Part shown: piece by piece, positions 6,615 through 63,393 of the stretch
Layout: every line of letters begins with the position of its first letter
Numbering within the stretch: position 1 is the stretch's first letter
Source of the DNA: an uncultured Methanosarcinales archaeon
GTDB taxonomy: Archaea; Nanobdellota; Nanobdellia; Woesearchaeales; GW2011-AR4
DNA: 64,000 bases
Direction: 5' to 3'
NCBI GenBank assembly: GCA_964650285.1
Contig: CAZYSP010000003.1
Location: 6,364-70,363, forward strand
Position numbers and translations under genes: made by a program
Notes under the pieces: generated by a model
What the model saw: only the letters and a program-made list of their open reading frames with translations
The model's database searches: none
What the model was told of the DNA's origin: nothing

Positions 6615-6655
6615 TATAAAAAATAATTAATCCCAATATATAAAATTAATTAAAA

Positions 6656-6796
6656 TGCGTCGGCCGGGACTTTCACCAATCTTTCCGAAGGAAAGCCTGA
6701 TTTTGGTCAAGCTTTTGCGCGTAAGCGGAAAAGATTGTTTTGAACCCGGATAGCGGGCTTGGAAGGCCCGAGTCATAGCCATTAGACCACCGACGC
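6656..6796 (-). tRNA. tRNA-Gly(UCC) with a 69-nt intron at T-loop position 59/60
   Basis: Minus strand: acceptor GCGTCGG/CCGACGC. D-arm GTCT-AATGGCTA-TGAC. Anticodon arm CGGGC-CTTCCAA-GCCCG. T-stem CCGGG + TTCAAA | intron | T + CCCGG, discriminator A. Intron ends pair (CAATCTTT/AAAGATTG) and it contains a UUCG hairpin. Confidence 0.65.
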
Positions 6797-7028
6797 ATTA
6801 AAAGTTTAAGATTGGTATTATATTTATAAATTTAATTATTTAGGGTCTGCGCCAGAGCGGACTTTAGGCAAAATACTAATTTTTATTGTAGTCGTTGCTT
6901 TATATTTCCCACCCGCCTCCCCCTAAATTAGGCACAGACCTATTTCTTAAACATAATCTATTTTGCCTATAAAATACCGAAATCCTTAAATAATGCTATA
7001 TACCTATAAGGTTATTTGGGGGTGTTAG

Positions 7029-17287: not shown

Positions 17288-17408
17288 TCCCCACCGCCGG
17301 ATTTGAACCAGCAACCTTTCGGTAACGGCTGAGTGTTTTTCATTCACAGCAAAATGCTTTGTCAAACACTTTCTACAGCCGAACGCTCTGCGGTTGAGCT
17401 AGATGGGG
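17288..17408 (-). tRNA. tRNA-Tyr(GUA) with 49-nt canonical (37/38) intron
   Basis: Minus strand: CCCCATC-TA-GCTC-AACCGCA-GAGC-G-TTCGG-CTGTAG[intron]A-CCGAA-AGGTT-GCTGG-TTCAAAT-CCGGC-GGTGGGG-A. C1:G72 is the archaeal/eukaryal Tyr identity pair. Confidence 0.65.
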
Positions 17409-37000: not shown

Positions 37001-38038
37001 TTATTTAAATGTTTTTAGTTGTTTTTTATTTATTGTCCCTGCAACAAGCAAGGGAAATATCAATGTAGCATCTGCAACTACCTTAACGCGCTGTGCGTTT
37101 GGCTTTATCTTTGCCCAGCTTATTGCTTCTTCCTGGTTGCCTCCGGAATCAGAGCCGTCATACTCGTTAGCAGTAGTTATGTAAATAGAGTATTCGAAGC
37201 CCTCCCTGAATATTGCTGAATTTAATAAGAAATGTTTTGCAATTCCTCCACCTAAAACTATGCATCCTGCTTTGTCTGTGTTCTGCAGCATTTTTGTAAG
37301 CGTAAAATTATCTTTTGTGACATCTATTGCAAATTTTGGATTTTTTCTTTTAAAGAAAGTCGTTAAATCTCCCATTGCGCCATCTGTAATGCCCGGGCAA
37401 AAAACAGGGATGTTGTTTTTTGCAGCCCAATATACAAACGACTGCTCGTGAGCTTTCTTTGTCAGTTTATGCTTTTTTACATATTTTCCCATTTCTCTTA
37501 CGACTTCATAAGTACCTGGGATCCCTTTGAATTCTTTCATTAGCTTCTTAAAAAAATCATTAAAGAACCTTTCAAAATATAGATATCGGTCCATTGGAGC
37601 CAGAATATTGCCTATTCTGCCTATTGACTCATCTAATAAAAATTTTCCCTTTATATCAAAAGTACCTAAGTGGAATGGCTTTATGCATTTGATTATGTCT
37701 TCTTCTAATGAAGCAGCAGTTGTTGTTATGCCGTCAACAAGCTTGTTTTTTACTAAATAAGCTATAATTTCCCTGTTGCCAGAGCTTATCATATTTCCTG
37801 TAAAAGATATCCATATTGCAAGCTTGTTTTTCTTTTTTTCCTCAAGCATTTTTGACAGAATATTGAAAGCTGCACCAAGGTTAGAACCCTGGAAGCCCAT
37901 ATGAGTATAATTTTCTATGAATTTATTGAAGTCAAAAGGCTCTTCAAAATTATGGCCTTGTATCTCAGGAAACCTGTCCATAGACAGATAATTCTTCAAA
38001 TTCCCTTTCCATTTCCTGTTTTTGACATATATTGACAT
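37001..38038 (-). CDS. dys: deoxyhypusine synthase
   Basis: FTGNMISSGNREII...GITTTAASLEEDIIKC and GGGIAKHF blocks collinear with DHS. Confidence 0.75.
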   Translation of the reverse strand: MSIYVKNRKWKGNLKNYLSMDRFPEIQGHNFEEPFDFNKFIENYTHMGFQGSNLGAAFNILSKMLEEKKKNKLAIWISFTGNMISSGNREIIAYLVKNKLVDGITTTAASLEEDIIKCIKPFHLGTFDIKGKFLLDESIGRIGNILAPMDRYLYFERFFNDFFKKLMKEFKGIPGTYEVVREMGKYVKKHKLTKKAHEQSFVYWAAKNNIPVFCPGITDGAMGDLTTFFKRKNPKFAIDVTKDNFTLTKMLQNTDKAGCIVLGGGIAKHFLLNSAIFREGFEYSIYITTANEYDGSDSGGNQEEAISWAKIKPNAQRVKVVADATLIFPLLVAGTINKKQLKTFK

Positions 38039-52286: not shown

Positions 52287-52439
52287 GGGGCTATAGTGTA
52301 GCTTGGTCTATCATTCCAGATCGGGGTAACCCAATTCGTAGAGTATCTGTTAAAGAGTCTGTGAAACGGAAATCTGGCGACCCGTGTTCAAATTGCTGCA
52401 TGGTCGACACCTTCGGCATTGAAATTCACGGTAGCCCCA
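52287..52439 (+). tRNA. tRNA, isotype undetermined, with two introns (~45 nt in the anticodon region, 33 nt at T-loop 59/60)
   Basis: GGGGCTA-TA-GTGT-AGCTTGGTCTA-TCAT-T-CCAGA...TCTGG-CGAC-CCGTG-TTCAAA|33 nt|T-CACGG-TAGCCCC-A. The D-arm resembles the Asp/Glu type. Confidence 0.45.
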
Positions 52440-56626: not shown

Positions 56627-56863
56627 TTAAAAACCCGCTTGACAGTTTAAAATAAAAAAACCAATCAAAACAGATACAGAAAACAATATTGATGATAAAA
56701 ACAAGGGATTCCTTAGCTTTTTTATTGCCAAAAATGTTCCGGAAGCAGCAATCCCAAACAATGCAATACTCACTACCATAAATGCAAAATGATACCATTG
56801 GCTTATCGAGAAAAATCTAATTAAACTAAGTTCTAAAGCTAAAGTTGCTAAGGAAAATGCCAA
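56627..56863 (-). CDS. small membrane protein (2 TM)
   Basis: Two hydrophobic helices. Confidence 0.3.
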   Translation of the reverse strand: MAFSLATLALELSLIRFFSISQWYHFAFMVVSIALFGIAASGTFLAIKKLRNPLFLSSILFSVSVLIGFFILNCQAGF

Positions 56864-58793: not shown

Positions 58794-58868
58794 TGCTCCC
58801 AACGGGATTCGAACCCGTGTCTCGGCCTCGAGAAGGCCGAATGATTGGCCGGGCTACACCATGGGAGC
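58794..58868 (-). tRNA. tRNA-Glu(CUC)
   Basis: GCTCCCA-TG-GTGT-AGCCCGGCCAA-TCAT-T-CGGCC-TTCTCGA-GGCCG-AGAC-ACGGG-TTCGAAT-CCCGT-TGGGAGC-A. 75 nt, no intron. Confidence 0.8.
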
Positions 58869-58883
58869 ATAGAAAATAAAAAA

Positions 58884-59047
58884 TGGGCCCGGAGGGATTT
58901 GAACCCCTGACCTAAAGCCAAGACATTTTATCTTTCCGGCTGGCTTAGCTCTCTAATGGCTAAAACATTTGTACCATTAGTGGTCATATAAGACCGGCGC
59001 TTTTGTCTAAGCTTGTAGCTTATCTAACCAGGCTGAGCTACGGGCCC
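58884..59047 (-). tRNA. tRNA-like locus (164 nt), canonical ends and T-arm, interior interrupted, probably by two introns; isotype unresolved
   Basis: GGGCCCG-TA-GCTC-AGCCTGGTTAGA... then ...AGGGG-TTCAAAT-CCCTC-CGGGCCC-A. TTAGA occurs twice, 73 nt apart, suggesting a D-arm intron. An AAGCC/GGCTT helix flanks a 22-nt segment in the anticodon region. Confidence 0.45.
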
Positions 59048-59097: not shown

Positions 59098-59181
59098 TGC
59101 GGCAGCCGAGATTCGAACTCGGGTCCCAGCCTTTTTACAATGTTTGGCAAGGCCGGATCTTAACCACTGGACTACTGCCGC
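59098..59181 (-). tRNA. tRNA-Gly(GCC) with 12-nt canonical intron
   Basis: GCGGCAG-TA-GTCC-AGTGGTTA-AGAT-C-CGGCC-TTGCCA[12 nt]A-GGCTG-GGAC-CCGAG-TTCGAAT-CTCGG-CTGCCGC-A. Confidence 0.7.
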
Positions 59182-59212: not shown

Positions 59213-59389
59213 TGGGCCCGACCAGACTTTCATCAGCTTTTCTGATTTTGCAAAGCAAAATCCTAGGTGAATGACCAAAGGGAAGTTCACCGCATTTTCC
59301 CAGGTTTTTTGCGTGAGCAAAAAAGCTGTTTTGAACTGGTGACCTACTCGGTGTAAACGAGTTATCATACCGGGCTAGACCACGGGCCC
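59213..59389 (-). tRNA. tRNA-Val(UAC) with a 103-nt intron at T-loop position 59/60; CCA encoded
   Basis: GGGCCCG-TG-GTCT-AGCCCGGTA-TGAT-A-ACTCG-TTTACAC-CGAGT-AGGTC-ACCAG-TTCAAA|103 nt|T-CTGGT-CGGGCCC-ACCA. Intron ends pair (CAGCTTTT/AAAAGCTG). Confidence 0.65.
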
Positions 59390-61692: not shown

Positions 61693-63393
61693 ATGTTCAA
61701 CTTTTTAAAAGACAAGTTAAAAGGAGCTATCTCAAAGTTCTCCAAAAAGGTAGAGGAAGAAACCAAAGTAGAAGAACCCATAGAAAAAGAAACAAAAGAG
61801 GAAGTTATAGAACAAAAAGAAGAGTCAAGACCTGTAGAGGGACCAAAAGAGGAAATTAAAGAAGCAGAAGAATCTCGGAAAATAATATCTTCTTTACCAA
61901 TGACAAGAGCCGAAGCACTAGAGCTCGTCAAAAAATACAACAAAGATCCATCTGATTTAAACCACTACCTGGAAAGCGAAGCAATTATGAAAGCTCTCGC
62001 AAAAAAACTTGGAGAAGATGAAGAATATTGGGCTATGCTTGGATTACTTCATGATGTTGATTGGGGCATAACAAAAGATGATGCTAAAAAACACTTAACT
62101 AAAGCTCCTGAAATACTTGAACAAGCAGGATTTGATAATAGCTTCATCAACATTGTTCTCTCTCATGGCTATGGATTTAATTGCGCTGGACTAAAAGACA
62201 AACAAAGAACTCAAAAAATTGAGTATGCACTTGCATGCTCTGAAACAATCACAGGCCTTATTCATGCCTATGCTTTAATGAAGGGTTCAATAGACGATAT
62301 GGAACCAAAAGGCCTGAAAAAGAAATTTAAAGACAAAGGTTTTGCAGCCGCAGTCAATAGGGACATAATAAGAGAATGCGAAAAACTAGGCTTAGAACTA
62401 TCTGAATTTTTTAGCTTGGCAATTGATGCTGTAAAAAGCATTGCGTCAGAAGTTGGTTTAGCGAAAGAACAGCCCAGAGAAGAAGAGAAACCACTAGAAG
62501 AAATAAAGGAAGAAGAAAAAGGCTTTTTTGGAAAACTAAAGGAAAAAATAGTCACAACAAAGATTTCATATGACAAATTTGAAAATTTATTTTCTGACCT
62601 GGAACTGACACTAATGGAAAACAATGTTGCTATGGAAGTTATAGAAAAGATAAAATCAGATCTAGGGCAAAATTTGATAGAAAAACCAATAAAAAGAACA
62701 AAAATAGAGGAAACAATAAGGGAGTCATTAAAAAATTCAGTAAAAGATTTATTTGATATTGATAAAATAAATTTATTGGAAAAAATAAGAAAAGAAGAAA
62801 AGCCATTTGTTATTGCATTTTTTGGAGTTAATGGATCTGGAAAAACAACAACAATAGCAAAGATTGCAGATTTATTAAACAAAAACAAAATTTCTTGTGT
62901 ACTGGCAGCTTCTGACACCTTCCGTGCAGCTTCTATAGAGCAATTACAAATTCATGCAGACAGATTGAGAATTAAATTAATAAAGCATGGTTATGGCTCT
63001 GACCCGGCAGCAGTTGCTTTTGATGCAGTAAAGCACGCAAAAGCAAAAAACATTGATGTTGTTTTAATAGACACAGCAGGAAGATTGCACAGCAACGTTA
63101 ACCTTATGGACGAGCTCAAAAAAGTTGTTAAAGTAGCTAAACCTGATCTAAACATTTTTGTCGGAGAAAGTATTGCAGGTAACGATTGCGTTGAGCAGGC
63201 AAAAACCTTTAATGAAGCAGTTGGTATTGATGGTATAATTTTAGCTAAAGCTGATATCGACGAGAAAGGTGGTGCAGCTATTTCTGTAAGTTACGTTACA
63301 AAAAAACCCATAATATATCTTGGAATGGGCCAGGAATATTCTGATTTAAAAGAATTTGAGCCTAATTTAATTGTAGAAGGTTTGGGGATTTAA
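61693..63393 (+). CDS. ftsY: signal recognition particle receptor FtsY with N-terminal acidic region and an HD-domain-like insertion
   Basis: C-terminal NG domain (GVNGSGKTTT, DTAGR, LAKADID). Residues ~60-250 carry an H..HD..H..H..D pattern (LNHYL, LLHDVDW, LSHGYG, LIHAYA, SIDD). GGTG ribosome-binding site at 61682-61685. Confidence 0.85.
   Translation: MFNFLKDKLKGAISKFSKKVEEETKVEEPIEKETKEEVIEQKEESRPVEGPKEEIKEAEESRKIISSLPMTRAEALELVKKYNKDPSDLNHYLESEAIMKALAKKLGEDEEYWAMLGLLHDVDWGITKDDAKKHLTKAPEILEQAGFDNSFINIVLSHGYGFNCAGLKDKQRTQKIEYALACSETITGLIHAYALMKGSIDDMEPKGLKKKFKDKGFAAAVNRDIIRECEKLGLELSEFFSLAIDAVKSIASEVGLAKEQPREEEKPLEEIKEEEKGFFGKLKEKIVTTKISYDKFENLFSDLELTLMENNVAMEVIEKIKSDLGQNLIEKPIKRTKIEETIRESLKNSVKDLFDIDKINLLEKIRKEEKPFVIAFFGVNGSGKTTTIAKIADLLNKNKISCVLAASDTFRAASIEQLQIHADRLRIKLIKHGYGSDPAAVAFDAVKHAKAKNIDVVLIDTAGRLHSNVNLMDELKKVVKVAKPDLNIFVGESIAGNDCVEQAKTFNEAVGIDGIILAKADIDEKGGAAISVSYVTKKPIIYLGMGQEYSDLKEFEPNLIVEGLGI

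What the first reader, a model, noticed from the sequence alone, without database searches (positions are those of the whole stretch)
6656..6796. tRNA-Gly(UCC) with a 69-nt T-loop (59/60) intron containing a UUCG hairpin
Same architecture as the Val gene. The 5' exon ends TTCAAA and the 3' exon begins T-CCCGG. The 69 nt between have base-pairing ends (CAATCTTT/AAAGATTG) and an internal CTTTCC-UUCG-GGAAAG hairpin. With the Val gene and the 52287 locus, three tRNAs in 64 kb have an intron at the same non-canonical position. The splicing endonuclease here must therefore routinely accept relaxed (hBH/HBh') substrates. This in turn predicts a particular endonuclease subunit architecture in this genome.
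Basis: seen in the sequence. Interest (0 to 1): 0.5.

Follow-up and report, generated by a model that had tools for sequence, protein, structure and literature searches.

The report
Archaeal tRNA-Gly gene with T-loop intron
This is a real glycine tRNA gene of an uncultured marine archaeon, interrupted in its T-loop by a 69-base intron of the well-known protein-spliced archaeal type; it is an ordinary example, but relatives show this site gains, loses and shares introns often.

Summary
Window 6656-6796 (minus strand) is a tRNA-Gly(UCC) gene: 58-nt 5' exon, 69-nt insert (6670-6738) after T-loop position 59, 14-nt 3' exon. Removing the insert gives a perfect 72-nt cloverleaf. A syntenic relative carries essentially that sequence uninterrupted. 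The junctions fold (MFE = centroid) into a bulge-helix-bulge: T stem, 3-nt bulge AG|U, 4-bp helix UUCA/UGAA, 3-nt bulge AA|A, then a 10-bp intron helix. One unpaired G opposite the 5' bulge makes it slightly relaxed.

In 79 metagenomic orthologues there are 17 distinct intron-bearing alleles of 16-185 nt, all at this site. The central helix covaries (UUCA/UGAA versus UUCG/CGAA). Four mature sequences occur both with and without an intron. The window's tRNA-Val intron is homologous to Gly introns, so one intron family has moved between tRNAs.

The "UUCG hairpin" is miscounted and competes with the terminal helix. The predicted epsilon2 or alpha2-beta2 endonuclease could not be tested (no EndA gene found), and published work reports alpha4 enzymes with an extra loop in DPANN lineages with many disrupted tRNA genes.

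Introns at 59/60 are known, including in DPANN, with in vitro cleavage shown. Verdict: new member of a known kind, low to moderate interest.

The parts
6656..6796 (-). Whole tRNA-Gly(UCC) gene, 141 nt (anticodon UCC at 6761-6763)
   Evidence: Sequence. The spliced form is a perfect 72-nt tRNA-Gly(tcc) by ARAGORN. An intron-less syntenic orthologue exists.
6739..6796 (-). 5' exon, 58 nt, acceptor stem to T-loop position 59 (ends UUCAAA)
   Evidence: Matches L127:8714-8785 except for compensated changes in the anticodon stem (28:42 G-C to C-G; 27:43 C-G to G-U), seen by comparing the sequences.
6670..6738 (-). Intron, 69 nt (ACAAUCUUUUCC...GAUUGGUGAAAG)
   Evidence: Absent from orthologues. Homologous to the L187 Gly intron and to the window Val intron.
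6656..6669 (-). 3' exon, 14 nt: U60, T-stem 3' strand CCCGG, acceptor 3' strand CCGACGC, discriminator A; CCA is not encoded
   Evidence: All 31 distinct intron-less orthologues read UUC[A/G]AAU-CCCGG.
6741..6744 (-). Central 4-bp helix H, exon strand: T-loop U54 U55 C56 A57
   Evidence: Paired with 6672-6675 in the MFE and centroid folds. Covaries across orthologues.
6672..6675 (-). Central helix H, intron strand: UGAA
   Evidence: UGAA occurs with UUCA and CGAA with UUCG across 17 alleles.
6738..6740 (-). 5' splice-site bulge A58 A59 | A(intron nt 1); predicted cut between 6739 and 6738
   Evidence: Unpaired in the MFE and centroid folds. The cut position is inferred from the standard BHB rule and from the orthologue sequence.
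6669..6671 (-). 3' splice-site bulge A G | U60; predicted cut between 6670 and 6669
   Evidence: Unpaired in the MFE and centroid folds. AG|U is present in 14 of 17 intron-bearing alleles.
6728..6737 (-). Inner helix h', 5' strand CAAUCUUUUC
   Evidence: Forms 10 bp with 6677-6686. Only about 1 in 1000 interior-shuffled introns gave a helix this long. Kept with a U-A to U-G change in L187.
6677..6686 (-). Inner helix h', 3' strand GGAAAGAUUG
6676..6676 (-). Single unpaired G between h' and H, opposite the 5' bulge (makes it a 3x1 internal loop; this is the 'relaxed' element)
   Evidence: One such extra nucleotide is found in 12 of 17 orthologous introns, and also in Val (A) and Pro (U).
6745..6749 (-). 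T-stem 5' strand CCGGG (outer helix h)
   Evidence: Pairs with 6664-6668.
6664..6668 (-). T-stem 3' strand CCCGG (outer helix h)
6821..6830 (-). A/T-rich TATA-box-like element UUUAUAAAUA, 25-34 nt upstream of the gene (inferred promoter)
   Evidence: Sequence only. Similar A/T boxes precede the other tRNA genes.
6642..6655 (-). T-rich tract UUUUAAUUAAUUUU directly after the discriminator base (inferred terminator)
   Evidence: Sequence only.
59213..59389 (-). tRNA-Val(UAC) with a 103-nt intron (59227-59329) at the same 59/60 site; same BHB layout, homologous intron
   Evidence: (ARAGORN on the spliced form; MFE fold).
52287..52439 (+). tRNA-Pro(GGG) with a 45-nt intron at 37/38 (52327-52371) and a 33-nt intron at 59/60 (52393-52425)

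Best explanation
The locus is the functional tRNA-Gly(UCC) gene of an uncultured marine DPANN-type archaeon. An archaeal protein-spliced (bulge-helix-bulge) intron interrupts it between T-loop positions 59 and 60.

Proposed mechanism:
1. The 141-nt precursor is transcribed from an A/T-box promoter (inferred).
2. T-loop nucleotides U54-A57 pair with UGAA near the intron's 3' end. This extends the T stem into a helix that carries two 3-nt bulges 4 bp apart, and a 10-bp intron helix closes it on the inner side (shown by folding and by covariation).
3. The archaeal splicing endonuclease EndA cuts two nucleotides into each bulge, after A59 and before U60. An RtcB-type ligase joins the exons into a 72-nt tRNA, and the 69-nt intron is released, probably as a circle. 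This step is inferred from what is known of the pathway.

The layout copies the canonical 37/38 intron onto the T arm, because 59/60 sits in the 7-nt T-loop where 37/38 sits in the 7-nt anticodon loop. In this lineage the site is an intron hot spot. The introns vary from 16 to 185 nt, are precisely lost in close relatives, and belong to a sequence family also found in tRNA-Val.
For: Exons and product:
- Removing 6670-6738 gives a perfect tRNA-Gly(tcc).
- The syntenic orthologue L127:8714-8785 is that tRNA without an intron (66.1 bits). It differs only by compensated anticodon-stem changes, seen by comparing the sequences.
- Four mature sequences occur both with and without an intron in metagenomes.
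- The closest relative (neighbouring glycosyltransferase 80% identical) also has a 59/60 intron at the syntenic spot.

Structure:
- The MFE and centroid folds of the whole precursor, and of the T arm plus intron, show h-B-H-B-h'. Their z-scores are -4.0 and -4.1, and 0 of 200 shuffles fold as well.
- Val and Pro fold the same way.

Covariation:
- In 17 distinct intron-bearing alleles the H helix is UUCA/UGAA in 4, UUCG/CGAA in 10 and UUCG/UGAA in 1.
- Fisher exact p = 0.004, not corrected for shared ancestry.
- On the junction alignment, 96.6% of cells pair in the proposed register against 68% or less when the partner is slid. Four pairs show changes on both sides, and 0 of 500 shuffles reach that.
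- The h' helices are longer than in shuffled introns; combined p is about 6e-16, treating related introns as independent.

Host and precedent:
- Archaeal markers are present (Nre, archaeal-type genes).
- The nearest named relative is labelled 'Nanoarchaeota archaeon'.
- 59/60 introns occur in ARMAN-2, and one was cleaved in vitro by its EndA (PMC3239211).
Against: - There is no RNA evidence that the precursor is transcribed or spliced.
- No EndA or RtcB gene was seen, because only 64 kb plus about 20 kb of this genome was available.
- The 5' splice site is not in a clean bulge: an unpaired G lies opposite it. A strictly 3-4-3-dependent enzyme might not cut it.
- The covariation statistics are not corrected for shared ancestry.
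- The T-stem sequence was fixed by my search pattern. Its variation comes only from Val and Pro, because the two added Micrarchaeota genes share the CCGGG/CCCGG stem.
Confidence: 0.9

Rival explanations
1. The gene is a pseudogene. A tRNA-Gly(UCC) gene was inactivated by a 69-bp insertion, and another intact copy does the work.
For: No expression data. Standard tRNA finders do not call the locus. Most orthologues lack an intron.
Against: Both exons are intact, with compensated stem changes relative to the L127 orthologue (sequences). The insert sits at exactly one site in 17 different alleles and always restores a BHB, with covariation. It occupies the syntenic position of the single intact gene in relatives. 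It is identical across many assemblies. Six of the 7 tRNA genes in the window are interrupted, so interruption is the norm in this genome.
Confidence: 0.03
2. The intron is spliced as described and also has a job of its own. It could be a stable circular RNA or a guide or regulatory RNA, or it could disrupt the tRNA 3' half as an integration target. That would explain its conserved inner segments.
For: A 20-nt inner block (GCAAAAGCUUGACCAAAAUC) is identical between the window intron and the L187 intron, although the exons differ at 6 positions. The interior is strongly structured. One orthologous intron (L136) carries UGAUGA...CUGA, which resembles C and D boxes.
Against: Precise loss of the intron is frequent, and intron lengths range from 16 to 185 nt with little shared interior. 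The 16-nt version is nothing but the BHB. This argues against an essential function. No Rfam family matches the intron. The window intron has no C or D boxes.
Confidence: 0.12
3. The locus is an assembly or chimera artefact, or a self-splicing (group I or II) intron, rather than a protein-spliced one.
For: None beyond the unusual position.
Against: The same sequence occurs in independent ENA, JGI, NCBI and TARA assemblies. At 69 nt it is far too short for a group I or II core, and no Rfam intron family matches. The junctions form a BHB instead.
Confidence: 0.01

Closest known systems
[quoted passage not shown] 2011, PMC3239211)
   Same: The host is a DPANN archaeon. The intron sits at exactly 59/60 in the T-loop. 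A BHB forms with the T stem as the outer helix. The genome has many disrupted tRNA genes. The Cys intron was cut in vitro by the host EndA. Three Micrarchaeota MAGs also carry a 59/60 insert in tRNA-Gly(UCC) itself; two were read to the 3' exon and use UUCA/UGAA (L016, L063), and the third contig ends inside the insert (L120).
   Different: The intron here is much longer (69 nt), with a 10-bp inner helix and both bulges present, so it is nearer to hBHBh' than the hBH form of the Cys intron. The lineage is different (marine; nearest named relative 'Nanoarchaeota archaeon'). The endonuclease type is unknown here, whereas ARMAN-2 has epsilon2.
Canonical archaeal tRNA intron at 37/38 with a strict hBHBh' (3-4-3) motif
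   Same: The geometry is the same: a 5-bp stem, then four loop nucleotides pairing with the intron to make H, then two 3-nt bulges cut two nucleotides in. Position 59/60 in the T-loop corresponds to 37/38 in the anticodon loop.
   Different: The intron is on the T arm, not the anticodon arm. One extra unpaired nucleotide lies opposite the 5' bulge, so it fails the strict 3-4-3 definition.
Transposed intron families of Thermoproteales (Fujishima et al. 2010, as summarised in PMC4033280)
   Same: Similar intron sequences occur in different tRNA species. The window Val(UAC) intron matches Gly(UCC) introns: local alignment score 34 against 15.5 +/- 3.2 for shuffles, and BLAST matches of 36 nt at 89% and 37 nt at 86%, each E = 5e-6, to L205.
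   Different: The lineage is DPANN, not Crenarchaeota. So far this is seen for only one site (59/60) and two tRNA species. The direction and mechanism of transfer are unknown.
tRNA-Trp intron of Euryarchaeota, which carries a C/D box guide RNA
   Same: It is a structured intron in an archaeal tRNA that may have a second function.
   Different: The window intron has no C (RUGAUGA) or D (CUGA) boxes and no Rfam match. Only the unrelated L136 intron has such boxes.

Membership tests
Archaeal BHB (protein-spliced) tRNA intron | Removing the insert restores a complete canonical tRNA | tested here: met
   ARAGORN calls a 72-nt tRNA-Gly(tcc) after removal. An intron-less orthologue scores 66.1 bits. 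Identical mature sequences occur with and without an intron.
Archaeal BHB (protein-spliced) tRNA intron | The exon-intron junctions lie in two 3-nt bulges separated by a 4-bp helix | tested here: met
   The MFE and centroid folds show bulges AAA and AGU separated by UUCA/UGAA. The register and covariation are supported on 21 junctions.
Archaeal BHB (protein-spliced) tRNA intron | The host is an archaeon that encodes the splicing endonuclease EndA (PF01974/PF02778) and an RtcB ligase | tested here: inconclusive
   The host is archaeal. Neither gene is in the window, its 10-kb flanks or any fetched locus. The rest of the genome was not available.
Archaeal BHB (protein-spliced) tRNA intron | The precursor is cleaved at the bulges and the exons are ligated in vivo or in vitro | not testable with these tools
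   This needs RNA sequencing or an enzyme assay.
Strict canonical hBHBh' (3-4-3) motif | Both splice sites lie in clean 3-nt bulges with nothing unpaired on the opposite strand, flanked by helices h and h' | tested here: not met
   The 3' site is clean. The 5' site has one unpaired G (6676) opposite it. The same holds in 12 of 17 orthologues, while L134 and L186 are strict.
   Both bulges and all three helices are present (h 5 bp, H 4 bp, h' 10 bp).
Host endonuclease of epsilon2 or (alpha-beta)2 architecture | A three-unit single gene of about 390 aa, or separate alpha and beta subunit genes | not testable with these tools
   No EndA gene was recovered for this organism. A search with an ARMAN-2 catalytic-unit fragment returned only epsilon2-like EndA pieces, the one named hit being Micrarchaeia. 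The literature reports alpha4 with an L3 loop in DPANN (PMC5829648).
Group I / group II self-splicing intron | A conserved catalytic core of a few hundred nucleotides or more (my knowledge of these families) | tested here: not met
   The insert is 69 nt and matches no Rfam intron family at gathering or E-value thresholds.
Split or permuted tRNA gene | The tRNA halves are at separate loci or in reversed order | tested here: not met
   The exons are collinear and 69 nt apart on one strand.
Transposing tRNA intron family (Thermoproteales type) | Significantly similar intron sequences in tRNAs of different identity | tested here: met
   Window Gly against window Val interiors: 0 of 500 shuffles reach the observed score. 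Window Val against the L205 Gly intron: E = 5e-6 for each of two segments.

The most novel reading that the evidence does not exclude
A modular, sequence-related family of structured introns is specific for the T-loop 59/60 site and is mobile in marine DPANN archaea. It moves between tRNA-Gly(UCC) and tRNA-Val(UAC), and perhaps other tRNAs with a UUCRAAU T-loop. It grows and shrinks by hairpin modules (16-185 nt) and is often lost precisely. It may be handled by an alpha4-type endonuclease with an added loop, which would break the classical link between subunit architecture and intron position.
Probability: 0.3. Interest if true: 0.45.

Novelty: new member of a known kind. Interest (0 to 1): 0.25.

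Why it matters
On its own this is another example of a well-described phenomenon, non-canonical archaeal tRNA introns. It matters mainly for annotation. Standard tRNA finders miss this gene and two others in the window, so the genome would look as if it lacked tRNA-Gly(UCC), Val(UAC) and Pro(GGG). A copy of one window protein is even filed in NCBI under a Flavobacteriales MAG.

The wider data set gathered here is more useful. It shows one insertion site with many alleles and presence/absence polymorphism between identical exons. It also shows an intron family shared between two tRNA species. That is a clean natural system for studying how BHB introns are gained, lost and moved outside the Thermoproteales. 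It could also test whether substrate tolerance tracks endonuclease loops rather than subunit type.

Tried and rejected
1. Contiguous tRNA fold: ARAGORN (bacterial mode and intron mode) and Rfam find none at 6656-6796. The best Rfam alignment is 18.2 bits with a mispaired acceptor stem. Rejected.

2. It competes with h', and forcing it costs 6.3 kcal/mol. It is not kept in the homologous L187 intron. Rejected as a feature.

3. C/D-box, H/ACA or other known RNA inside the intron: no Rfam match.

4. EndA hunt:
- Pfam scan of 58 window ORFs: no PF01974 or PF02778.
- 10 kb beyond each window end, via the look-up of encoding contigs: none.
- phmmer with the M. jannaschii EndA sequence (checked against PDB 1a79) on 6133 six-frame ORFs of 60 aa or more from the window and the loci held at that point: none.
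- A database search with a 79-aa ARMAN-2 catalytic-unit fragment gave only 9 hits, all pieces of epsilon2-like EndA, the one named hit being Micrarchaeia.
The enzyme of this lineage stays unknown.

It was useful only for the three Micrarchaeota 59/60 introns.

6. A GC-rich inverted repeat next to the gene (6843-6943) folds only weakly better than shuffles (z about -1.9). Not pursued.

7. My MFE-based automatic check of the T stem reported 'False' for many alleles. I did not work out whether this was an indexing fault or alternative folds, and I do not rely on that column.

Full report
**Observation.** The feature is on the minus strand at exactly the coordinates given. Read 5' to 3' it has three parts:
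- GCGUCGG-UG-GUCU-AAUGGCUA-UGAC-U-CGGGC-CUUCCAA-GCCCG-CUAU-CCGGG-UUCAAA, 58 nt at 6796..6739, ending at standard position 59;
- 69 nt at 6738..6670;
- U-CCCGG-CCGACGC-A, 14 nt at 6669..6656.

ARAGORN and Rfam at curated thresholds do not call a tRNA here. At a permissive threshold Rfam gives 18.2 bits (cut-off 29), and only by pairing the acceptor 5' strand with the wrong 3' sequence. So no contiguous tRNA fold explains the locus. With the 69 nt removed, ARAGORN calls a perfect 72-nt tRNA-Gly(UCC).

**Host.** The window is 33% G+C and encodes archaeal proteins, including Nre, SMC/ScpA, deoxyhypusine synthase, type IV pilus components and aminoacyl-tRNA synthetases. The glycosyltransferase next to the tRNA has identical copies in TARA and other marine metagenomes. 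Its nearest named homologue (69% identity) is from a MAG labelled 'Nanoarchaeota archaeon', and the next is Woesearchaeota. I therefore treat the host as an uncultured marine DPANN-type archaeon.

**Comparative proof of the exon boundaries.**
- The contig of the 69%-identity relative (L127) has the same gene order as the window (Nre, DHH, then the tRNA; GT, SMC and RNase HII follow). At the matching place it carries an uninterrupted tRNA-Gly(UCC) of 66.1 bits. Its acceptor stem, D arm and T arm are identical to the window gene minus the insert. By comparing the two sequences, the differences in the anticodon stem are compensated (28:42 G-C to C-G; 27:43 C-G to G-U). This indicates that both genes are under tRNA constraint.
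- A closer relative (GT 80% identical, L128) has a contig that starts inside a different 59/60 intron, followed by UCCCGGCCGACGCA directly upstream of GT.

**Structure.** The unconstrained MFE and centroid folds agree, both for the whole precursor and for the T arm plus intron. From the outside in, they show:
- the T stem CCGGG/CCCGG;
- a 3-nt bulge A-G-U60 on the 3' strand;
- a 4-bp helix between T-loop U54-A57 and intron UGAA;
- a 3-nt bulge A58-A59-A on the 5' strand, with a single unpaired G opposite;
- a 10-bp helix CAAUCUUUUC/GGAAAGAUUG.

The z-scores are -4.0 and -4.1, and 0 of 200 shuffles fold as well. This is the bulge-helix-bulge substrate of the archaeal splicing endonuclease, placed on the T arm in the same register as the canonical 37/38 intron on the anticodon arm. 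Cutting two nucleotides into each bulge gives exactly the orthologue's sequence. The motif is close to the full hBHBh' form, and the extra G is its only departure from the strict 3-4-3 definition.

The string is CUUUCC-UUC-GGAAAG, it shares AAAG with the terminal helix, and it is about 6 kcal/mol worse when forced.

**The other tRNA genes in the window**:
- tRNA-Val(UAC), 59213-59389 (-), has a 103-nt intron at 59/60.
- The 52287 locus is tRNA-Pro(GGG), with a 45-nt intron at 37/38 and a 33-nt intron at 59/60.
- Tyr(GUA) has a 49-nt intron at 37/38.
- Gly(GCC) has a 12-nt intron at 37/38. By my reading of its sequence it has the H helix but no inner helix.
- Ile(UAU) has three introns.
- Glu(CUC) has none.

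Six of the 7 genes are interrupted, and three of the ten introns sit at 59/60. Val and Pro fold into the same layout, each with one extra nucleotide opposite the 5' bulge.

**Relatives at scale.** One metagenome scan with a lineage-specific 5'-exon pattern returned 79 loci and 48 distinct genes. Of these, 31 have no intron and 17 have one.
- Every intron lies after position 59. Lengths run from 16 to 185 nt.
- The central helix covaries with the T-loop: UUCA/UGAA in 4, UUCG/CGAA in 10, UUCG/UGAA in 1, and 2 relaxed exceptions. Fisher p = 0.004, uncorrected for ancestry.
- On a junction alignment that adds Val, Pro and two Micrarchaeota genes, 96.6% of cells pair in the proposed register, against 68% or less when the partner is slid. 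Four pairs change on both sides, and 0 of 500 shuffles match this.
- Inner helices are longer than in shuffled introns (combined p about 6e-16, treating related introns as independent).
- Four mature sequences occur both with and without an intron, and two occur with two different introns. Gain, loss or replacement at this site is therefore frequent and precise.

**Intron family.**
- The window Gly intron shares its 5' arm, a 20-nt inner block and its 3' arm with the 92-nt L187 intron.
- The interiors of the window Gly and Val introns align far better than shuffles (score 34 against 15.5 +/- 3.2, 0 of 500).
- The Val intron matches the Gly intron of L205 at both ends (E = 5e-6 each). L205's exons differ from the window Gly gene at 2 positions.

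One intron family therefore occupies the same site in two tRNA species. This resembles the intron transposition described in Thermoproteales (PMC4033280).

**Comparison with what is known.** Introns in T-loops and at other non-canonical positions are long established in Archaea (PMC3241643; PMC6379350). ARMAN-2, a DPANN archaeon, has 59/60 introns in tRNA-Cys and tRNA-Pro, and its epsilon2 EndA cut the Cys precursor in vitro (PMC3239211). Three Micrarchaeota MAGs carry a 59/60 insert in tRNA-Gly(UCC) itself; the two read through to the 3' exon use UUCA/UGAA. The finding is therefore a new member of a known kind.

**The endonuclease prediction.** I could not find this organism's EndA. The older rule does tie relaxed and non-canonical introns to those two types. 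However, Kaneta et al. [quoted passage not shown] Their tRNA survey included a Pacearchaeota and a Woesearchaeota genome. They conclude that subunit type contributes least to substrate range (PMC5829648). A safer prediction is a tolerant EndA, probably carrying a specificity loop, of unknown subunit type.

**Verdict.** The mechanism is standard EndA/ligase splicing of a near-canonical BHB at 59/60 (confidence 0.9; splicing itself is inferred, not shown). Interest is low to moderate. The most novel reading not excluded is a mobile, modular T-loop intron family in marine DPANN archaea.

Noticed in passing
window 58884-59047 (-): tRNA-Ile(UAU) with three introns: 22 nt inside the D-stem 3' strand, 45 nt at 37/38, and 22 nt at the junction of the anticodon stem and variable loop. 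The hand-spliced 75-nt product is called tRNA-Ile(tat) by ARAGORN. The T stem has an A49-C65 mismatch. Rfam scores the unspliced gene at 28.1 bits, just under its threshold.
   Followed up: partly
window 52287-52439 (+): tRNA-Pro(GGG) with two introns (37/38 and 59/60). Every possible single-intron excision leaves C at position 33 of the anticodon loop (UCGGGGA), where U33 is almost universal. The BHB at its 37/38 intron is also poor (3 of 4 H pairs, no clear inner helix).
   Followed up: partly
window 59098-59181 (-) and 17288-17408 (-): tRNA-Gly(GCC) has a 12-nt intron at 37/38 with helix H (UUGC/GUAA) but no inner helix, which is the loop (BHL) type. tRNA-Tyr(GUA) has a 49-nt intron at 37/38. 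With Glu(CUC) at 58794-58868 as the only uninterrupted gene, 6 of the 7 tRNA genes in the window are disrupted.
   Followed up: partly
window 37001-38038 (-): The exact deoxyhypusine synthase protein of this archaeal contig is in NCBI as MDP7244830.1, labelled 'MAG... [Flavobacteriales bacterium]'. This looks like an archaeal contig mis-binned into a bacterial MAG.
   Followed up: no
window 56717-56837 (-): Sub-threshold match to an H/ACA snoRNA model (SNORA16, 24.9 bits against 35) in an intergenic stretch. It is also present in the identical contig L210. It may be an archaeal H/ACA guide RNA or chance.
   Followed up: no
window 6843-6943 (both strands): A G+C-rich patch in the A/T-rich spacer between tRNA-Gly and the next ORF. 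Its ends pair (GGGUCUGCGCC ... GGCACAGACC), but it folds only weakly better than shuffles (z about -1.9). It may be a small RNA or nothing.
   Followed up: partly
L136 (Ga0208373_1000527), tRNA-Gly(UCC) intron: A 41-nt 59/60 intron (UAGUUGAUGAGGAAGGAAUGCCUGACGCAUCAGCAUGAAAG) contains UGAUGA and CUGA 11 nt apart. These resemble the C and D boxes of a minimal guide RNA.
   Followed up: no
L016, L063, L120 (Micrarchaeota MAGs): tRNA-Gly(UCC) genes of a different DPANN phylum are also interrupted after position 59. In L016 and L063 (inserts of 44 and 56 nt) the same UUCA/UGAA central helix is used. The L120 contig ends inside its insert, so its 3' junction was not seen.
   Followed up: partly
window 61693-63393 (+): The SRP-receptor (FtsY-type, SRP54 GTPase) protein carries an N-terminal HD phosphohydrolase domain (PF01966, E = 1.4e-7). 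I did not examine this domain combination further.
   Followed up: no
L173 and L192 (metagenome loci): Two orthologous 59/60 introns depart from the common pattern. L173 has only 3 of 4 H pairs. L192 needs a 4-nt 3' bulge to keep H. They are natural examples of more relaxed substrates in the same lineage.
   Followed up: no
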